Below are positions 1-7,397 of a stretch of 7,397 nt of DNA, in pieces. Every line of letters begins with the position of its first letter. Positions within the stretch are counted from its first letter, which is position 1. This stretch comes from a virus. Taxonomy: Duplodnaviria > Heunggongvirae > Uroviricota > Caudoviricetes. The position numbers and the translations under genes are program-made. The notes under the pieces were generated by a model. The model was not told the origin of the DNA, did no database searches, and worked only from the letters and a program-made list of their open reading frames with translations. The stretch spans positions 1-7,397 of IMG/VR virus record IMGVR_UViG_2531839585_000005. One strand, written 5' to 3'.

Positions 1-151
1 CTGGATGACATCCGGGCGGGACGCATTGAGCGCGCCATTTCACGCTGTCGCAATATCTGGGCGTCCCTGCCGGGTGCCGGTTACGGTCAGCGTGAGCATT
101 CACTGGAAAAACTGGTCACCGTCTGGCGTACCGCGGGGCGTACCGGCTTAA
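1..151 (+). CDS. K: Phage endolysin, C-terminal part (lambda R / P2 K-type lysozyme); 5' end lies outside the window, 3' end uncertain
   Basis: Frame +1 from position 1 reads ...DDIRAGRIERAISRCRNIWASLPGAGYGQREHSLEKLVTVWRTAG..., matching the conserved C-terminal motif of lambda R-type endolysins (NIWASLPGAGYGQ.EH). Frame +1 has no stop until 229-231 and runs into the lysA ATG at 166. TAA codons sit in frame +2 at 149-151 and 158-160, so a 1-bp indel near 133-140 has probably displaced the true stop. Not in the ORF track because the start is outside the window. Confidence 0.65.
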   Translation, partial: WMTSGRDALSAPFHAVAISGRPCRVPVTVSVSIHWKNWSPSGVPRGVPA

Positions 152-165
152 ACGGAGTAAACACC

Positions 166-589
166 ATGAAGAAATTATCCCTTTCACTGATGCTGAACGT
201 GTCGCTGGCGCTGTGCTGGCACTGTCCCTGATTTACCCGCAGAGCGTGGCCGTCAGTTTTGTCGCCACCTGGGCGATTCTGGGACGGTTATCTGTGTGGT
301 TGCCGGTGGTGTCGGCGTGTATGCCACGGAGTATGTACTTGAACGCTACGGGCGGGAGCTGCCACCGGAATCGCTGGCCGTGAAGATTGTCACGTCGCTG
401 TTTTTGCAGCCGGTGCCGTGGCGCAGGCGGTCAGTGGCTCTGGTAGTGATGGTGGCGACGTTTATCTCGCTGGTCGCTGCCGGGTGGATTTTTACCGCGC
501 TGATTTATCTCGTGGCATCGGTGTTCTTCCGGCTGATACGTACGGCCTGCTGTCAGCGTTTTGAGGGGCGGGAACCATGTCAAAGCTGA
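166..589 (+). pseudogene. lysA: lysA-like lysis-timing membrane protein, frame-disrupted as sequenced (needs all three + frames)
   Basis: ATG at 166 sits 7-8 nt downstream of GGAG and opens MKKLSLSLMLNVSLAL in frame +1, which stops at 229-231. The continuation ...VLALSLIYPQSVAVSFVATWAILG is in frame +3 (about 213-283). The remainder, VICVVAGGVGVYATEYVLERYGRELPPESLAVKIVTSLFLQPVPWRRRSVALVVMVATFISLVAAGWIFTALIYLVASVFF..., is frame +2 and corresponds to track ORF 296-589. Hydrophobic segments fit a small membrane protein. The stop overlaps the lysB start. Position after the endolysin matches the P2 order K-lysA-lysB-lysC. Confidence 0.6.
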
Positions 590-1020
590 TGATTGTGCTG
601 GTTGTGTTGTTATCACTGGCGGTGGCCGGTCTGTTTCTGGTGAAACACAAAAATGCCAGCCTGCGCGCCTCGCTGGACAGGGCGAACAATGTCGCCAGCG
701 GGCAGCAGACGACCATCACCATGCTGAAAAATCAGCTTCATGTTGCCCTCACCAGGGCAGACAAAAACGAGATGGCGCAGGTGGCACTGCGTCAGGAACT
801 GGAGAACGCCGCGAAGCGTGAAGCACAGCGCGAGAAAACCATCACGAGGTTACTTAATGAAAACGAGGATTTCCGCCGCTGGTATGGCGCTGACCTGCCT
901 GATGCTGTGCGCCGGTTGCACCAGCGCCCCGCCTGCACCGACGCCAGTGATTGTCCACAACGCCTGCCCGAAAGTGAGTCTTTGCCCGATGCCGGGCAGC
1001 GACCCAGAGACGAACGGTGA
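577..1020 (+). CDS. lysB: LysB, Rz-like inner-membrane spanin (i-spanin)
   Basis: Intact 147-codon ORF. N-terminal MSKLMIVLVVLLSLAVAGLFLV is a single type-II membrane anchor, followed by a charged, helix-prone periplasmic domain (EMAQVALRQELENAAKREAQREK). GAGG lies upstream of the ATG. Sits in the P2 lysis cassette position and carries an embedded out-of-frame lipoprotein gene. Confidence 0.8.
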   Translation: MSKLMIVLVVLLSLAVAGLFLVKHKNASLRASLDRANNVASGQQTTITMLKNQLHVALTRADKNEMAQVALRQELENAAKREAQREKTITRLLNENEDFRRWYGADLPDAVRRLHQRPACTDASDCPQRLPESESLPDAGQRPRDER

Positions 1021-1147
1021 TTTAAGTGCCGATATCCGGCAGCTTGAGAACGCGCTGGCGCGCTGTGCCAGCCAGGTAAAAATGATTAAACACTGTCAGG
1101 ACGAAAACGATGCTCAAACCCGACAGCCTGCGCAGGGCGCTGACTGA
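857..1147 (+). CDS. lysC: LysC, Rz1-like outer-membrane lipoprotein spanin (o-spanin), starting inside lysB in the +1 frame
   Basis: ATG at 857 preceded by GAGG. Product MKTRISAAGMALTCLMLCAGCTSAPPAPTPV... has a lipoprotein signal peptide with a lipobox-like LCAGC and a proline-rich mature region. It is 96 aa, overlaps the lysB 3' end out of frame and extends past the lysB stop, which is the classic Rz/Rz1 overlapped architecture. The track ORF 740-1147 is the same frame with an upstream alternative start. Confidence 0.75.
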   Translation: MKTRISAAGMALTCLMLCAGCTSAPPAPTPVIVHNACPKVSLCPMPGSDPETNGDLSADIRQLENALARCASQVKMIKHCQDENDAQTRQPAQGAD

Positions 1148-1571
1148 TGCCGTCACGGTGCTGAAAACACCGAATGCTGCGGATATTCGTGGATACGGGA
1201 GTATTGCCTCCACGCTGGCGGCGTCGTTGTCATTCGAAAAGCGTTACACGCTCAATGTCATTGTGACCGACTTTACCGGTGATTTTGACCTGCTCATCGT
1301 GCCGGTGCTGGCGTGGCTGCGGGTAAATCAGCCCGACATCATGACCACCGACGCAGGTCAGAAAAAGGGCTTCACGTTTTATGCAGACATCAACAATGAC
1401 AGCAGCTTTGATATCAGCATCAGCCTGATGCTGACCGAGCGAACGCTGGTCAGTGAGGTGGACGGCGCGCTGCATGTGAAGAATATCCCGGAACCTCCGC
1501 CGCCGGAGCCGGTCACCCGCCCGATGGAGCTGTATATCAATGGCGAACTCGTGAGTAAGTGGGATGAATGA
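1110..1571 (+). CDS. R: Tail completion protein R
   Basis: Intact 153-codon ORF MLKPDSLRRALTDAVTVLK...FEKRYTLNVIVTDFTGDFDLLIVPVLAWL...PEPPPPEPVTRPMELYINGELVSKWDE, recognised as P2 gpR-family. Overlaps the lysC 3' end. Its stop is fused to the S start (ATGAATGA). Confidence 0.85.
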   Translation: MLKPDSLRRALTDAVTVLKTPNAADIRGYGSIASTLAASLSFEKRYTLNVIVTDFTGDFDLLIVPVLAWLRVNQPDIMTTDAGQKKGFTFYADINNDSSFDISISLMLTERTLVSEVDGALHVKNIPEPPPPEPVTRPMELYINGELVSKWDE

Positions 1572-2016
1572 GTTTAAGCGTTTTGAAGACCGGCTGACCG
1601 GACTGATTGAGTCGCTGTCACCGTCAGGGCGTCGGCGACTGAGTGCCGAACTGGCGAAACGTCTGCGGCAGAGTCAGCAGCGTCGGGTGATGGCACAGAA
1701 AGCCCCGGATGGCACACCCTATGCGCCACGCCAGCAGCAGAGCGCCAGAAAAAAGACCGGTCGCGTTAAGCGAAAAATGTTTGCGAAACTTATCACCAGT
1801 CGTTTTTTGCATATCCGCGCCAGCCCTGAACAGGCATCAATGGAGTTTTACGGCGGGAAGTCACCGAAAATAGCCAGTGTGCATCAGTTCGGTCTGTCGG
1901 AAGAAACCCGGAAAGACGGTAAGAAAATTGATTATCCGGCGCGTCCTCTGCTCGGCTTTACCGGTGAGGATGTGCAGATGATTGAAGAGATTATCCTGGC
2001 TCACCTCGACCGTTAG
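1564..2016 (+). CDS. S: Tail completion protein S
   Basis: Intact 150-codon ORF MNEFKRFEDRLTGLIESLSPSGRRRLSAELAKRLRQSQQRRV...PLLGFTGEDVQMIEEIILAHLDR, recognised as P2 gpS-family. Start overlaps the R stop, consistent with translational coupling. Confidence 0.85.
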   Translation: MNEFKRFEDRLTGLIESLSPSGRRRLSAELAKRLRQSQQRRVMAQKAPDGTPYAPRQQQSARKKTGRVKRKMFAKLITSRFLHIRASPEQASMEFYGGKSPKIASVHQFGLSEETRKDGKKIDYPARPLLGFTGEDVQMIEEIILAHLDR

Positions 2017-2082
2017 TTGTGCCATTCCCGACACCTCATCGTTACATTGCCGCCGGTATGACCCGGCGGCATCCTTCCCGTT
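2017..2082 (+). promoter_or_regulatory. S-V intergenic region with an 8-bp GC-rich hairpin (2049-2056 / 2063-2070) and a TGT-N10-ACA partial dyad (2018-2033); candidate late-operon promoter or RNA element for the V-W-J-I-H-G operon
   Basis: GCCGCCGG (2049-2056) and CCGGCGGC (2063-2070) are exact reverse complements around a 6-nt loop, with no following T-run. TGT at 2018-2020 and ACA at 2031-2033 resemble the TGT-N12-ACA Ogr-box of P2 late promoters, but the spacing is 10 nt rather than 12. In P2 a late promoter lies upstream of V. Confidence 0.3.
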
Positions 2083-2710
2083 ATGAACACTCTCGCAAAT
2101 ATCCAGGAACTCGCGCGCGCACTGCGCAACATGATCCGCACCGGCCTTGTCGTCGAAACCAACCTTAAAGCCGGTCGCTGCCGTGTGCAGACCGGCGGCA
2201 TGTGCACCGACTGGCTTCAGTGGCTGACTCGTGCCGGGCGTTCGCGCACTGGTGGGCACCTTCCGTGGGGGACAGGTGCTGATTCTGGCCGTGGGCGGTG
2301 AACTCGACACGGCGTTCGTTCTGCCGGGGATTTATTCCGGTGATAACCCCGCGCCGTCTGCGTCGGCGGATGCCCTGCATATCCGTTTCCCTGACGGGGC
2401 GGTGATTGAGTATGAACCCGAAACCAGCGCACTCACGGTAAGCGGAATTAAAACGGCCAGCGTGACGGCTTCTGATTCTGTTACTGCCACGGTGCCGGTG
2501 GTCACGGTGAAAGCATCAACCCGCGTACCCTGGACACACCGGAGGTGGTTGCACCAACAGGCTGATTACGGCACGCTGGAAGTGCAGAAGGGCGGGACGA
2601 TGCGCGGCAACATTGAACACACCGGCGGTGAACTCTCATCAAACGGTAAGGTACTGCATACCCATAAACACCCCGGCGACAGCGGCGGCACAACCGGGAG
2701 CCCTCTATGA
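2083..2710 (+). pseudogene. V: Baseplate spike / central hub protein V, frame-disrupted as sequenced
   Basis: Frame +1 ORF 2083-2301 gives MNTLANIQELARALRNMIRTGLVVETNLKAGRCRVQTGGMCTDWLQWLTRAGRSRT..., the gpV N-terminus. The continuation WWAPSVG is in frame +3, then QVLILAVGGELDTAFVLPGIYSGDNPAPSASADALHIRFPDGAVIEYEPETSALTVSGIKTASVTASDSVTATVPVVTVKASTRV is in frame +2 (track ORF 2231-2710). A second cluster at about 2525-2575 passes through frames +1 (TLDTPEVV) and +3 (CTNRLIT) before returning to +2 (GTLEVQKGGTMRGNIEHTGGELSSNGKVLHTHKHPGDSGGTTGSPL). The stop overlaps the W start (ATGA). Confidence 0.8.
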
Positions 2711-3054
2711 CAGCGCGTTATCTCGGAATGAATCGCAGTGATGGCCTGACTGTCACTGACCTTGAGCATATCAGCCAGAGTATCGGCGATATCCTGCGCA
2801 CACCGGTCGGCTCACGGGTGATGCGTCGTGATTACGGCTCGTTGCTGGCGTCAATGATTGACCAGCCGCAGACCCCGGCGCTTGAGTTGCAGATTAAGGT
2901 CGCCTGTTACATGGCGGTGCTGAAATGGGAACCCCGCGTCACCCTGTCATCCGTCACCACTGAGCGCAGTTTTGACGGGCGAATGACAGTTACGTTAACC
3001 GGCCAGCACAACGACACCGGCCAGCCACTTTCGTTAACCATCCCTGTGAGTTGA
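2707..3054 (+). CDS. W: Baseplate wedge protein W (T4 gp25-like)
   Basis: Intact 115-codon ORF MTARYLGMNRSDGLTVTDLEHISQSIGDILRTPVGSRVMRRDYGSLLASMIDQPQTP...SLTIPVS, recognised as P2 gpW-family with the expected length. Start overlaps the V stop. Confidence 0.9.
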   Translation: MTARYLGMNRSDGLTVTDLEHISQSIGDILRTPVGSRVMRRDYGSLLASMIDQPQTPALELQIKVACYMAVLKWEPRVTLSSVTTERSFDGRMTVTLTGQHNDTGQPLSLTIPVS

Positions 3055-3058
3055 AACC

Positions 3059-3949
3059 ATGCCGATTATCGACCTGAACCAGCTACCTGCACCGGATGTG
3101 GTCGAGGAGCTGGACTTTGAAACCATTCTTGCTGAACGCAAGGCGACACTGATTTCTCTTTACCCGGAAGACCAGCAGGAGGCGGTCGCCCGTACCCTGA
3201 CGCTGGAATCTGAGCCTCTCGCCAAACTGCTGGAGGAAAATGCTTATCGTGAGCTTATCTGGCGTCAGCGTGTGAATGAGGCCGCACGGGCGGTGATGCT
3301 GGCCTGTGCCGCCGGTAATGACCTTGATGTGATTGGTGCCAATTACAACACCACGCGCCTGACTATCACCCCGGCAGATGATTCGACCATTCCGCCGACA
3401 CCGGCAGTGATGGAATCTGACACCGATTATCGTCTGCGTATTCAGCAGGCGTTTGAGGCTTAAGCGTCGCCGGGTCGGTGGGGCTATCAGTATCATGGTC
3501 GCAGTGCCGACGGGCGTGTCGCGGATATTCTGTACCAGTCCGTCTCCGGCCTGCGTCACCATCTCGTGCTGTCACGTGAAAATAACGGTGTGCATCCGAA
3601 GACTGCTGGCGGGTGCGTAACGCCCTTAATGGCGAGGACGTCAGGCCGGTGGCCGACCGCGTGACCGTGCAGTCTGCCGCCATGTTGAATACCAGATAAA
3701 CGCCACGCTTTACCTTTACCCTGGTCCCGAAAGGAACCCATCCGCGCGCCGCCGTGAAAAAACTGGAAGCTAATCACGGCACAGCACCGGCTGGGGCGGA
3801 CATCCGTCTGTCTGCCATTTATGCCGCTTTGCATGTGGAAGGGTGCAGCGTGTCGAACTGGCTGCACCCTGGCCGACATCGTGCTCAACAGTACGCAGGC
3901 GTCTTTCTGTACCGAATACCGCGTCGTGACCGGAGGCTCGGATGAGTGA
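3059..3949 (+). pseudogene. J: Baseplate protein J, intact for the first ~134 codons, then heavily frame-disrupted
   Basis: Frame +2 ORF 3059-3463 gives MPIIDLNQLPAPDVVEELDFETILAERKATLISLYPEDQQEAVARTLTLESEPLAKLLEENAYRELIWRQRVNEAARAVMLACAAGNDLDVIGANYNTTRLTITPADDSTIPPTPAVMESDTDYRLRIQQAFE and then hits TAA. Downstream, recognisable gpJ segments appear piecemeal across all three + frames: YQYHGRSADGRVADI, TSPSPACVTIS, VLSRENNGV, VRNALNGEDVRPVADRVTVQSAA, VEYQINATLYLYPGPE, VKKLEA, ITAQHRLGR, DIRLSAIYAALHVEG, LADIVLNSTQASFCTEYRVVTGGSDE. The final segment is in frame with a TGA at 3947-3949 that overlaps the I start. Full-length gpJ is about 300 aa as I recall. Confidence 0.8.
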
Positions 3950-4472
3950 TTCGCGACTGCTGCCGACCGGCTCATCACCGCTTGAAGTCGCCGCCGCAAA
4001 AGCCTGTGCGGAAATTGAAAAAACGCCGGTCAGTATTCGTGAGCTGTGGAACCCGGATACCTGTCCGGCAAATCTGCTGCCGTGGCTGGCGTGGGCGTTT
4101 TCGGTCGACAGGTGGGATGAAAAGTGGCCGGAAGCGACAAAACGCGCCGTTATCCGCGATGCCTATTTCATCCACTGTCATAAAGGCACAATAGGTGCAA
4201 TCCGGCGTGTGGTGGAGCCGCTCGGCTATCTCATCAACGTGACGGAGTGGTGGGAAAACAGTGACCCGCCCGGCACCTTCCGGCTTGATATTGGTGTACT
4301 GGAAAGCGGCATCACAGAGGCAATGTATCAGGAAATGGAACGGCTGATTGCTGATGCCAAACCTGCAAGCCGTCACCTTATTGGCCTGAACATTACCCGG
4401 GACATTCCCGGCTACCTGTTCGCCGGTGGTGTGGCTTACGACGGCGATGTAATTACGGTTTATCCCGGATAA
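3942..4472 (+). CDS. I: Baseplate protein I
   Basis: Intact 176-codon ORF MSDSRLLPTGSSPLEVAAAKACAEIEKTPVSIRELWNPDTCPANLLPWLAWAFSVDRWDEKWPEATKRAVIRDAYFIHCHKGTIGAIRRVVEPLGYLINVTEWWENSDPPGTFRLDIGVLESG..., recognised as P2 gpI-family with the expected length. Start overlaps the J 3' end. Confidence 0.9.
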   Translation: MSDSRLLPTGSSPLEVAAAKACAEIEKTPVSIRELWNPDTCPANLLPWLAWAFSVDRWDEKWPEATKRAVIRDAYFIHCHKGTIGAIRRVVEPLGYLINVTEWWENSDPPGTFRLDIGVLESGITEAMYQEMERLIADAKPASRHLIGLNITRDIPGYLFAGGVAYDGDVITVYPG

Positions 4473-4482
4473 GTGAGGAATA

Positions 4483-6648
4483 ATGAGCACAAAATTCAGA
4501 ACCGTTATCACCACTGCCGGTGCAGCAAAGCTGGCAGCGGCAACCGCGCCGGGAGGGCGGAAGGTCAACATTACCACGATGGCCGTCGGGGATGGCGGTG
4601 GTAAATTGCCTGTCCCGGATGCCGGACAGACCGGGCTTATCCACGAAGTCTGGCGACATGCGCTGAACAAAATCAGCCAGGACAAACGAAACAGTAATTA
4701 TATTATCGCAGAGCTGGTTATTCCGCCGGAGGTGGGCGGTTTCTGGATGCGTGAACTTGGCCTGTACGATGATGCGGGAACTAATTGCCGTGGCGAACAT
4801 GGCCGAAAGTTATAAGCCAGCCTTGCCGAAGGCTCAGGGCGTTCGCAGACCTGCGCATGGTCATCATCGTCAGCAGTGTGGCCTCAGTGGGCTGACCATT
4901 GACACCACAACGGTGATGGCACGCAGGATTACGTTGATGACAAAATTGCAGACATGAACAGTCACGACGTCACCCGACGCCTCGCTGACCGCAAAAGGTT
5001 TTACTCAGTTAAGCATGCGACCAACAGCACGTCTGAAACACTGGCCGCAACGCCGAAAGCGGTAAAGGCCGCGTATGACTTGCTAACGGGAAATAACGCC
5101 AGGAGCCACCAAGCGCGAAAAGGCCTTGTCCAGCTCAGTAGGCCACCAACAGCGATTCTGAAACGCTTGCGGCAACGCCAAAGGCGGTTAAGACAGCGTA
5201 TGACCTTGCTAACGGGAAATACACTGCACAGGAGCCACCACGCGCGAAAGGTCTTGTCAGCTCAGTAGCGCCACCAACAGGATTCTGAAACGCTGGCTGC
5301 AACATCAAAAGCGGTGAAGTCTGCCTATGACAATGCTGAAAAACGTCTTCAGAAAGATCAGAACGGTGCGGATATTCCGGGAAAGGATACCTTCACGAAA
5401 AATATCGGTGCCTGTCGTGCTTATAGCGGCGCTTTGAGCACTGAAGCCGGAAACTGGACAACCGCTCAGTTTATTGAATGGCTGGATTCCCGTGGTGCAT
5501 TTAATCATCCGTACTGGATGTGCAAAGGCTCCTGGTCATATGCAAATAACAAAATCATTACGGATACCGGATGTGGTGATATCCACCTGGCTGGTTGTGT
5601 CGTCGAGGTCATGGGAACTAAATCTGCAATCACTATTCGAGTGACCACGCCGACAACATCAAGTGGTGGCGGTACAACCAGCGCGCAATTCACTTACATA
5701 AATCATGGGGACGGCTACTCCCCCGGCTGGCGTCGTGACTGGAATCGTCAGGGCGACGCAATGACCGGAACGATTAATCAGGATGGCGGAAGCCAGAATG
5801 CCTATATGTCTACGGCCTTATGTTCAGGCACCAGAGGCGGCAAAAAATATCTCAGAAAGTTTCGTGGTGGAGAAGGAGACACTATCTGGCATGAAACAGT
5901 ACAGGGCGGGGTAATTCGCTGGGCGACAGGAAACTATGACGCTCAGGAAGAATTATCACTCAGCTCCGCTTATGGTCTCCGTTCAAGAGGTGAGATTACA
6001 TCACTCAGTGCTAATGGTCTGCGCATTGCTTATGGCAATTATGGATTCTTTATCAGGAATGATGGCGGCAGCACATATTTAATGCTGACGGCCTCTGGCG
6101 ATAAATTAGGCACATAGAACAATTTAAGACCGCTGACTATAAATAACGCCAAGGGCGCAGTATCAATGGGGCATGGCCTGAATGTTACTGGTGATATTGT
6201 CTCAAGTACCAAAGTACGTGCCGGTAGCGGGAAAAAATTCACGGTCAGCAGCAGTAATACATCCACGAAGGAAGCCGCATTCAATTTGTGGGGAAACTCA
6301 AGTCGTCCGGTGGTGGCTGAATTAGGTGATGATGCAGGCTGGCATTTTTACAGTCAGAGAAATACAGATAACAGCATCACGTTTGCTGTTAACGGTCAGG
6401 TATCACCATCTAACTATAGTAATTTTGATTCACGCTATGTCCGGGATATCCGGCTTGGTGGTGCTGCCACATACAAACCTGCGAACAATGGCATGACATG
6501 GACACATCAGGCACCGTCCGGGTGTGTATATTCCGGCATTATTGTTCAGGATACCGGCTCAAACTCTGCCGATAACATTGGTGGCATATATTACAGACCG
6601 GTGCAGAAATACATTAACGGGACTTGGTATAACGTGGCGCAGGTATAA
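4483..6648 (+). pseudogene. H: Tail fibre protein H (mosaic). 5' third is frame-disrupted, one in-frame TAG at 6115-6117, otherwise continuous
   Basis: ATG at 4483 preceded by GAGG. Frame +1 reads MSTKFRTVITTAGAAKLAAATAPGGRKVNITTMAVGDGGGKLPVPDAGQTGLIHEVWRHALNKISQDKRNSNYIIAELVIPPEVGGFWMRELGLYDDAGT, the gpH N-terminus. From about 4778 the continuation (LIAVANMAESYKPAL, LAEGSGR, RMVIIVSSVASV, LTIDTTTVMA, then the ATNSTSETLAATPKAVK repeats) is scattered over three frames up to about 5280. From 5281 to 6648 a single frame +1 runs cleanly apart from the TAG at 6115-6117 (track ORFs 5314-6117 and 6166-6648). The C-terminus ...NFDSRYVRDIRLG...RPVQKYINGTWYNVAQV is the conserved P2-H-type tail-fibre terminus. 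Confidence 0.85.
5006..5337 (+). repeat. Three imperfect direct tandem repeats of ~126 bp inside H, encoding a repeated tail-fibre motif
   Basis: Copy 1 about 5006-5130, copy 2 about 5131-5258, copy 3 (partial, diverging) about 5259-5337. Each encodes a variant of QLSSATNS(T/D)SETLAAT(P/S)KAVK(A/T/S)AYDLANGKYTAQEATTARKGLV. The copies differ by substitutions and 1-bp indels. Confidence 0.7.
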
Positions 6649-6651
6649 TTT

Positions 6652-7179
6652 ATGCAGCATTTGATAAATATAACGGCAGGTAATCCAAAAACGGTTGAAC
6701 AATATCAATTGACAAAGGACTTTGATGTTGTCTGGTTTTTTTCAGAAGATGGTAAGAACTGGTACGAAGAACAAAAGTATTTTGCTGATGACACGATAAA
6801 AATAGCGTACGACAAAGATAATATCATCCGCTATGTGGAAAAGGATGTGACAGCTATCAGACCGGATGGATTAAGTGTGGTTGAAGTGGCGGATATTACT
6901 GCTAACCGACGGGCGGATATTTCAGGGGGCTGGATGTTTAAGGACGGCAAAGTGATTAAACGCATTTATACGGCAGATGAATTGCGGCGGCAGGCAGAAA
7001 TTCGGAAAGTCAGACTTCTTGCAGATGCTGAATCCGTGATTTTGCCGCTGGAGCGCGCTGTCAGGCTGAACATGGCAACAGATGAGGAGCGTAGCCGACT
7101 GGAAGCATGGGAGCGTTACAGCGTTCTGGTCAGTCGTGTGGATCCTGCAAATCCTGAATGGCCGGAAATGCCGCAATAA
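6652..7179 (+). CDS. G: Tail fibre assembly protein G (Tfa-type chaperone)
   Basis: Intact 175-codon ORF starting 3 nt after the H stop: [44 protein letters not shown]...[42 protein letters not shown]. The C-terminal half is recognised as the P2 gpG/Tfa family. Position immediately 3' of the tail-fibre gene fits. Confidence 0.9.
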
Positions 7180-7213
7180 GTTGTATGAGTTCTGGTGTGA
7201 GCTTACACATCTA

Positions 7214-7255
7214 TGGCACAGAGTAAAGCCTAATCTGACAGTTCGCTCTGTGCCA
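7214..7255. repeat. Perfect 10-bp inverted repeat (TGGCACAGAG / CTCTGTGCCA) separated by 22 nt, in the A+T-rich region after G
   Basis: Positions 7214-7223 and 7246-7255 are exact reverse complements. No T-run follows, so it is not a canonical intrinsic terminator. It could be a protein-binding site, an RNA stem-loop at the operon 3' end, or the junction of inserted DNA. Confidence 0.5.
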
Positions 7256-7397
7256 AGAGCGGACGTTACTACTACTCGACCTAAAGTAAAGCAATTGTAC
7301 TCATTAAATAGTGGTAATTGGGTCTGGTGCTTAATCGAACGAAATCTCATGTTAGGCGAAAAAAACGTCTGAAAAATCGATTAACACATACACCTGT

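What the first reader, a model, noticed from the sequence alone, without database searches (positions are those of the whole stretch)
1..5300. Frame disruptions occur in four discrete blocks while intervening genes are pristine
Disrupted intervals are about 130-300, 2230-2580, 3455-3930 and 4770-5290. The genes between them (lysB, lysC, R, S, W, I), plus the 3' half of H and G, are intact and keep their translational-coupling overlaps. Within blocks the changes look like single-base deletions, and the encoded residues in alternate frames are still recognisable. The pattern suggests locally low-quality sequence (low-coverage or error-prone reads) rather than selection-driven decay, but a real mutational process cannot be excluded from sequence alone. 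Any functional inference about this prophage, such as whether it is defective or could act as a tailocin, depends on settling this first.
Basis: inference. Interest (0 to 1): 0.6.

Follow-up and report, generated by a model that had tools for sequence, protein, structure and literature searches.

The report
Assembly artefact from two merged prophages
The clustered "frameshifts" in this P2-like prophage are neither mutations nor poor reads: the assembler merged two nearly identical prophage copies and dropped one base wherever they differ, so this contig says nothing about prophage decay.

Summary
The window is one whole draft contig, APZI01000619.1, from ETEC colony E. coli p0305293.13. It carries the P2-type late genes K'-lysA-lysB-lysC-R-S-V-W-J-I-H-G. 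The clustered single-base deletions are real in the deposited sequence: 56 individually lost bases in six clusters, plus a 133-bp gap. No insertions are unbalanced and no substitutions lie inside the clusters.

They are not low-coverage noise and not decay. 51 of the 56 lost bases sit on positions that vary between intact alleles or sibling assemblies, where 6.4% of positions vary (p~1e-46). 70% are third codon positions. 52 of 56 recur at the identical position in five other assemblies from the same project, but over a different stretch in each. A site deleted in one assembly is a plain SNP in another.

The window also has a TAG stop in H that combines TAT from one allele with TGG from the other. 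It joins a copy-B G gene to a copy-A cargo junction. Restoring one base per dropped column reopens all twelve genes.

Best explanation: the consensus of two collapsed P2-like prophage copies (Illumina reads, Celera Assembler, >200x average) lost a base at each column where the copies disagree. This is not a real feature. No inference about a defective prophage or a tailocin is justified.

The parts
1..151 (+). 3' end of the endolysin gene K; the contig starts inside the gene. Bases are dropped at 135 and 137.
   Evidence: Aligns to L001 1501-1653, annotated as a glycoside hydrolase.
135..283 (+). Dropped-base cluster 1: four 1-bp losses (135, 137, 214, 283) that break the end of K and the start of lysA.
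   Evidence: The same positions are lost in L006. L004, L005 and L010 show T>C and C>T SNPs at ref 1635 and 1638, and L010 and M8 show a SNP at ref 1786.
166..589 (+). lysA, broken by cluster 1.
   Evidence: Pfam LysA hit on the called fragment 296-589. 141 aa and open after repair.
577..1147 (+). lysB (577-1020) and overlapping lysC (902-1147), both intact.
   Evidence: 147 aa and 81 aa, the same as the reference.
1110..1571 (+). R (tail completion), 153 aa instead of 155, with a locally scrambled segment.
   Evidence: residues 21-30 differ from the 120899 protein.
1169..1195 (+). Dropped-base cluster 2: six bases lost, net in frame.
   Evidence: L004, L005 and L010 carry five SNPs at ref 2673, 2675, 2676, 2679 and 2682, and L004 alone carries a sixth at ref 2704 (lost in L005). 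Six SNP sites, six bases lost.
1564..2016 (+). S (tail completion), intact.
   Evidence: 150 aa, 0 aa differences.
2083..2710 (+). V (baseplate spike), broken by clusters 3a and 3b.
   Evidence: 211 aa and open after repair. Intact at 211 aa in the siblings L004, L005 and L011.
2229..2273 (+). Dropped-base cluster 3a: five bases lost.
   Evidence: Ref 3739-3741 ACA is CTG in L004 and L005, ref 3763 is A>G, and ref 3787 is G>A. Five SNPs, five bases lost.
2527..2569 (+). Dropped-base cluster 3b: three bases lost.
   Evidence: L005 has SNPs at ref 4042, 4066 and 4086. The same bases are lost in L006, and two of them in L010.
2707..3054 (+). W (gp25-like baseplate protein), intact.
3059..3949 (+). 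J (baseplate), broken by cluster 4.
   Evidence: 302 aa and open after repair. The first called J fragment has a different length in each of the six assemblies: 134, 116, 202, 115, 188 and 174 aa.
3456..3869 (+). Dropped-base cluster 4: 17 events, 18 bases.
   Evidence: The limits of this cluster in reference coordinates differ by assembly: window 4974-5404, L004 4909-5404, L005 5050-5305, L006 4881-5139, L010 5088-5211.
3942..4472 (+). I (baseplate), intact.
4483..6648 (+). H (tail fibre), carrying cluster 5, the 133-bp gap and a hybrid stop codon.
4782..5281 (+). Dropped-base cluster 5: 20 bases lost. All six assemblies are collapsed in this region.
   Evidence: 14 of the 20 are SNP sites in the intact allele of strain STS63-1-E.
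5141..5142 (+). Site of the 133-bp gap, which is one 132-bp unit of the H tandem array plus one base.
   Evidence: The array is 132 bp x 3.5 in the reference and about 127 bp x 2.5 in the window. The intact H of strain 05-3629 naturally lacks one 132-bp unit.
6085..6159 (+). Stretch that alternates site by site between allele A and allele B.
   Evidence: The window carries the allele-B base at about two thirds of the differing sites and the allele-A base at the rest, interleaved.
6115..6117 (+). Premature TAG in H (codon 596), a hybrid of TAT (allele A) and TGG (allele B).
6652..7179 (+). G (tail fibre assembly), intact and carrying copy-B alleles.
7243..7256 (+). Switch from copy-B alleles to copy-A sequence.
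   Evidence: alternative alleles run up to ref 8932 and reference alleles start at ref 8945; the tail 7180-7397 scores 208/218 against the A-type loci L001, L004 and L011, and 83 against the B-type loci.
7180..7397 (+). Start of the variable cargo locus after G (copy-A type). The contig ends here.

Best explanation
The read set of E. coli p0305293.13 contained two P2-like prophage sequences about 95-98% identical across this region. Most likely they are two prophages in one genome: copy A, with the cargo gene found in strain 120899, and copy B, with the cargo gene found in strains 05-3629 and O121 201805972. The overlap-consensus assembler merged reads of both copies into one contig.

Where one copy's reads dominated, the consensus followed that copy. 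This produces phase switches, visible as patches of 'substitutions'. Where neither dominated, each column at which the copies disagree was emitted as a gap, so exactly one base was lost per inter-copy SNP. One tandem-repeat unit of H was also lost, or taken from the shorter copy.

Shown: the sites, their recurrence in other assemblies, their identity with SNP sites, the chimerism, and that repair reopens the genes. Inferred: that the two copies sit in one genome rather than in a mixed culture, and which step of the consensus software drops the column.
For: 1. Only deletions: 52 against 1 compensated insertion. None of the 123 substitutions lie inside the clusters.
2. One base lost per SNP. Ref 3739-3741 ACA is CTG in the siblings and the window lost those 3 bases. 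Ref 2673-2704 has six SNP sites and the window lost six bases.
3. 51 of 56 lost bases fall on positions variable in siblings or intact genomes, where 6.4% of positions are variable (p~3e-46). 30 of 57 deleted bases (this count includes the compensated deletion at 5937) fall on SNPs between copy A and the intact copy-B proxy O121 201805972, against about 1.7 expected.
4. 32 of 46 unambiguously placed lost bases are third codon positions (p=6e-7), like the window's substitutions (74%). Pooled over six assemblies the figure is 57 of 70.
5. 52 of 56 recur at the identical position in other assemblies, yet the cluster limits differ between colonies of one patient. V is intact in three assemblies and broken in three.
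6. The TAG stop is a hybrid of TAT and TGG. The G gene is B-type but joins an A-type cargo junction.
7. Both cargo types occur among the sibling contigs.
8. Complete ETEC genomes commonly hold two or more P2-like places.
9. Restoring one base per column reopens all 12 genes. Substitutions are 85 synonymous and 36 non-synonymous.
10. The genomes were sequenced on HiSeq2000 and assembled with Celera Assembler at >200x. This contig is number 619, in a project whose assemblies ranged from 36 to 687 contigs.
Against: I could not inspect any raw reads, so the roughly 50/50 base mixture at dropped columns is predicted, not seen. I did not obtain a pure copy A or copy B from this strain. Five lost bases (ref 1716, 5263, 5278, 6519, 6662) match no SNP in the alleles sampled. 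I found no published description of this behaviour in Celera Assembler consensus. The supplementary table that would give this assembly's statistics is not held.
Confidence: 0.93

Rival explanations
1. Locally low coverage or error-prone reads produced random miscalls in a few stretches.
For: The clusters are discrete, the changes are single-base, and the assembly is highly fragmented (contig number 619).
Against: The errors would have to hit the same positions in six separate libraries (52 of 56 shared). They would also have to coincide with natural SNP sites (51 of 56), favour third codon positions, avoid homopolymers and never produce a substitution or insertion. Reported average depth is >200x.
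Confidence: 0.02
2. The frameshifts are real: a decaying, defective P2-like prophage, or a tailocin-like remnant, inherited by related isolates.
For: The same truncated H fragments (110 aa and 52 aa) are recorded in four and six assemblies respectively, one of them from a differently named strain, 2770900.
Against: Colonies of one patient, reported as clonal for all but two other named patients, differ in which genes are broken and where each cluster starts and ends. Sites deleted in one colony are plain SNPs in another. There are no substitutions or insertions in the clusters, and 70-81% of lost bases are at third codon positions. The remaining differences are mostly synonymous. None of the 2251 complete E. 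coli genomes that match the window does so at 99% identity or more, as a shared allele would (best 97.2%). The sibling contigs carry terminase, capsid and lysis genes next to the tail genes, so this is a whole prophage and not a tail-only cluster.
Confidence: 0.02
3. The same consensus artefact, but the two alleles come from a mixed culture or cross-sample carry-over (two strains with one prophage each) rather than from two prophages in one chromosome.
For: Sequence alone cannot tell the two sources apart. The study did find patients with mixed ETEC populations.
Against: At least five colonies or assemblies show the same two-allele signal, which would need repeated contamination with the same partner. 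Co-resident P2-like prophages are common in complete ETEC genomes, with 2 to 6 places per record among the top hits. The isolates were picked as single colonies.
Confidence: 0.05

Closest known systems
P2-type (Peduovirus) late gene cluster, e.g. the intact prophage of E. coli 120899 (NZ_CP025916.1, 4154932-4162517)
   Same: Same gene order K-lysA-lysB-lysC-R-S-V-W-J-I-H-G. 97.2% identity over the whole window. The same Pfam families hit the called genes.
   Different: The window lacks 190 bases, has a hybrid stop codon in H, and mixes alleles of two copies. After repair it is collinear and open.
Collapsed-repeat or chimeric consensus artefacts of short-read draft assemblies (general knowledge; the same group notes that automated assembly misrepresents repetitive etpA, PMC4309559)
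   Same: Two near-identical sequences are merged into one contig. The consensus switches phase between copies and a tandem-repeat unit is lost (for the etpA remark).
   Different: The usual outcome is a substitution chimera or a contig break. Here the disagreeing column is dropped, which creates runs of 1-bp deletions that look like frameshift decay. I found no published description of this outcome.
Genuinely degraded prophages and R-type tailocin clusters
   Same: Superficially similar: broken structural genes, with tail genes among the open ones.
   Different: Real decay mixes substitutions, insertions and deletions of varied sizes and is stable among clonal isolates. None of that holds here. 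Head, terminase and lysis genes sit next to the tail genes in the sibling contigs.

Membership tests
P2-like (Peduovirus) prophage late operon | Gene order lysis cassette - R - S - V - W - J - I - H - G, with high nucleotide identity to P2-like phages | tested here: met
   93-95% identity to P2 and P2-like phages. 97.2% to the annotated E. coli 120899 prophage. Pfam hits to LysA, LysC, GpR, Phage_tail_S, Phage_spike, GPW_gp25, Baseplate_J, Tail_P2_I, Phage_tail_fib and Caudo_TAP.
Collapsed two-copy consensus artefact | Lesion sites coincide with the sites where the two copies differ | tested here: met
   51 of 56 lost bases fall on known variable positions, where 6.4% of positions vary. One base is lost per SNP in clusters 2 and 3a.
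Collapsed two-copy consensus artefact | The contig contains alleles of both copies (chimerism) | tested here: met
   Hybrid TAG from TAT and TGG, with site-by-site alternation at 6085-6159. A B-type G gene joins an A-type cargo junction.
Collapsed two-copy consensus artefact | Independent assemblies of the same clone give different lesion extents at the same candidate sites | tested here: met
   V is intact in three of six assemblies, and the first called J fragment has six different lengths.
Collapsed two-copy consensus artefact | Reads show two bases at each dropped column, at about double depth, with no read-level deletion | not testable with these tools
   Raw reads are not available here.
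Random low-coverage or low-quality read error | Errors are random in position, not reproducible between libraries, and mix substitutions with indels | tested here: not met
   52 of 56 are shared between assemblies. There are 0 substitutions and 0 net insertions in the clusters. Lost bases are biased to third codon positions. They are not homopolymer-associated.
Real pseudogenised or defective prophage | Lesions are heritable and identical among clonal isolates, with neutral substitutions alongside them | tested here: not met
   Extents differ among colonies of one patient. No substitutions lie in the clusters. Repair gives intact genes.
R-type tailocin | A tail and lysis module without head, packaging or replication genes | tested here: not met
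   The sibling contigs L004, L005 and L006 carry terminase, scaffold (GPO), capsid, small terminase and head-completion genes immediately upstream.

The most novel reading that the evidence does not exclude
The dropped bases are artefacts, but some of the different A/B allele patterns among the colonies could be real. That would mean ongoing gene conversion between two co-resident P2-like prophages within one patient's ETEC population, reshuffling baseplate and tail-fibre alleles.
Probability: 0.04. Interest if true: 0.4.

Novelty: not a real feature. Interest (0 to 1): 0.1.

Why it matters
There is no biology to pursue in the frameshifts. The prophage or prophages behind this contig are most likely intact, and any label such as 'defective prophage' or 'tailocin' drawn from this contig would be wrong.

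The practical value is a warning about data quality. The artefact is systematic. It recurs in at least six public assemblies from a project of about 200 ETEC genomes. It passes the intuitive test 'the same allele is seen in independent isolates'. It has also put artefactual proteins into public databases: the scrambled R protein WP_001503645.1, the V fragment WP_432762450.1, and fragments END27415, END27417 and END27419-21.

Three signatures expose this kind of artefact without reads: runs of deletions only with no substitutions among them, a bias of the lost bases to third codon positions, and coincidence with known SNP sites.

Tried and rejected
- **Homopolymer-type errors (454, Ion Torrent, Nanopore).** Rejected: 35 of 46 single-base losses are at bases outside any run, against a 56% background.
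- **Ambiguity codes or Ns stripped by a pipeline.** Rejected: the deposited contig is identical to the window and contains only A, C, G and T.
- **Unpolished stretches of a hybrid long-read assembly.** Dropped once the source proved to be Illumina-only with Celera Assembler.
- **Literature searches.** Searches for APZI and GCA_000356865 found nothing. The mBio paper's supplementary table is not held. A search for a published description of this consensus behaviour found nothing relevant.
- **Looking for a complete genome with the window's exact alleles.** None found; the best is 97-98%. That fits a chimera.
- **First repair attempt.** It wrongly filled the natural compensated indel pair at 5934/5937 and shifted H out of frame. 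Corrected.
- **Rfam and tRNA scans of the window.** Empty.
Full report
**What the window is.** The 7397 bases are one entire record: contig APZI01000619.1 of draft assembly GCA_000356865.2, from Escherichia coli p0305293.13. It holds the late region of a P2-like prophage: the 3' end of endolysin K, then lysA, lysB, lysC, R, S, V, W, J, I, H and G, and 218 bases of the variable locus after G. This rests on 93-95% identity to P2-like phages, 97.2% identity over the full length to an annotated intact prophage of E. coli 120899, and Pfam hits on the called genes. According to the source study, these isolates are ETEC colonies from patients with diarrhoea in Dhaka, several colonies per patient. They were sequenced on HiSeq2000 and assembled with Celera Assembler at an average depth above 200x, giving 36 to 687 contigs per genome (PMC4462620). 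P0305293.1 is listed as Bangladesh 2011 (PMC4309559).

**Checking the observation.** A global alignment to the 120899 prophage gives 123 substitutions, 52 deletion events and 1 insertion. The insertion is cancelled three bases later and is shared with siblings, so it is natural variation.

The deletions form six clusters: 135-283, 1169-1195, 2229-2273, 2527-2569, 3456-3869 and 4782-5281. They span 1178 bp and lose 56 bases individually. There is also a 133-bp gap at 5141/5142. None of the 123 substitutions fall inside the clusters, and only 38 of 7397 circular shifts reproduce that.

Three points were missed:
- The cluster in R nets -6 and scrambles about 10 residues.
- The 133-bp gap equals one 132-bp unit of the H tandem array plus one base.
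- There is a premature TAG at 6115-6117 in the supposedly intact 3' half of H.

**What the deletions are not.** They are not homopolymer errors: 35 of 46 single losses are at bases outside any run. No ambiguous bases were stripped out.

**The turning point.** Exact look-ups of the frameshift-truncated products showed that the 110-aa and 52-aa H fragments are on record in four and six assemblies respectively. These include p0305293.7, p0305293.8 and a differently named strain, 2770900.

Aligning the five other contigs to the same reference shows something else:
- 52 of the window's 56 lost bases are lost at the identical reference position in at least one other assembly.
- Each assembly loses them over a different contiguous stretch. 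For the J cluster the limits are window 4974-5404, L004 4909-5404, L005 5050-5305, L006 4881-5139 and L010 5088-5211.
- V is intact in three assemblies and broken in three. The first called J fragment has six different lengths.
- A position deleted in one assembly is an ordinary SNP in another. Ref 3739-3741 ACA is CTG in L004 and L005, and the window lost exactly those three bases. Ref 2673-2704 has six SNP sites and the window lost six bases. The window's substitutions at ref 4881, 4885, 4888, 4909 and 4942 are deletions in L006.

**Independent tests.**
1. *Codon position.* 32 of 46 unambiguously placed lost bases are third positions (p=6e-7). That matches the window's ordinary substitutions at 74%. 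Pooled over six assemblies the figure is 57 of 70.
2. *H cluster.* All six assemblies are collapsed there, so I used intact H alleles from complete genomes. In strain STS63-1-E, 34 of 701 positions differ from the reference, and 14 of the window's 20 lost bases fall on them.
3. *Two cargo types.* The sibling contigs continue into two different cargo genes after G. The second type occurs in six complete genomes. 30 of 57 deleted bases fall on SNPs between that intact prophage (O121 201805972) and the reference, against about 1.7 expected (p~1e-25). This count includes the compensated deletion at 5937.
4. *Overall.* 51 of 56 lost bases fall on positions variable in siblings or intact genomes, which make up 6.4% of positions (p~3e-46).

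**Direct signs of chimerism in the window.** The TAG at 6115-6117 takes its second base from TAT (reference, L005, L011) and its third from TGG (L004, L006, L010). It lies in a stretch that alternates site by site between the two alleles. The G gene carries second-copy alleles up to ref 8932. From ref 8945 the window is first-copy sequence, and its last 218 bases score 208/218 against first-type loci but only 83 against second-type loci. In the sibling L004, the same cargo junction follows a first-type G.

**Repair test.** Putting one base back at each dropped column restores all twelve genes to reference length and open frame. This holds whether or not the 132-bp unit is restored. Only the hybrid TAG remains. 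The window's substitutions are 85 synonymous and 36 non-synonymous, as expected between working alleles. An intact H that lacks exactly one 132-bp unit exists in strain 05-3629. The gap may therefore be the second copy's true length or a repeat collapse. I cannot tell which.

**Mechanism.**
- *Shown:* the lost bases mark the columns where two prophage alleles present in the read set disagree, and the contig is a patchwork of both alleles.
- *Inferred:* the two alleles are two P2-like prophages in one chromosome. Complete ETEC genomes related to the reference hold 2 to 6 such places. Both cargo types appear among colonies of a patient who is not one of the two patients reported as mixed.
- *Also inferred:* the consensus step emitted a gap where neither base had a majority. 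One way this could happen is that the two bases were placed in separate half-occupied columns. I found no publication that describes this, and no reads were available.

**Comparison and verdict.** The underlying element is an ordinary P2-like prophage. The pattern of disruptions is an assembly artefact, not low-coverage noise and not biological decay. The tailocin idea fails as well, because head, terminase and lysis genes flank the tail genes in the sibling contigs. Biological interest is low. The useful lesson is methodological: the artefact is systematic enough to recur in 'independent' isolates from one pipeline, and it has reached public protein databases.

Noticed in passing
window 1110-1571; 2231-2710; 6652-7179: Proteins translated from this artefactual contig have their own public accessions, and some are RefSeq or UniRef entries seen on this contig only. 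They are the scrambled 153-aa R (WP_001503645.1), a V fragment (WP_432762450.1) and the G protein (WP_001503652.1).
   Followed up: partly
window 7180-7397; L001 8869-10280; L002 8968-10074; hits: The locus between G and the sheath gene FI holds a different cargo gene in nearly every relative: a 311-aa hypothetical, DUF3800, S1 peptidase, Shedu nuclease, HNH endonuclease, DUF6615, or acetyltransferase plus HTH. From my own knowledge this is the P2 Z/fun position, a known hotspot for anti-phage genes. The window contains only its first 218 bases.
   Followed up: no
L018 4016-4801 and L019 3884-4669 (minus strand): The intact second-type prophages of 05-3629 and O121 201805972 carry an extra 786-nt hypothetical gene on the opposite strand between S and V. 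It is absent from the window and from 120899, so this is a second insertion site for accessory genes.
   Followed up: no
L004, L005 and L006, outside the window's span: In the sibling contigs the same fragmentation affects capsid, small terminase, head completion, sheath and tape-measure genes. The collapse therefore extends over the whole prophage, not only the region covered by the window.
   Followed up: partly
L011 (AQDW01000131.1; probably strain 2770900): This contig has few substitutions against 120899 and a partly different set of dropped sites in J and H. That is expected if this strain pairs the same first copy with a different second copy. Assigning this contig to strain 2770900 is my inference from accession order.
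   Followed up: partly
L012 (NZ_CP027325.1, strain 2013C-4830): The H tail-fibre gene of this complete genome is annotated 'frameshifted' in RefSeq. I did not check whether that is real or another assembly problem.
   Followed up: no
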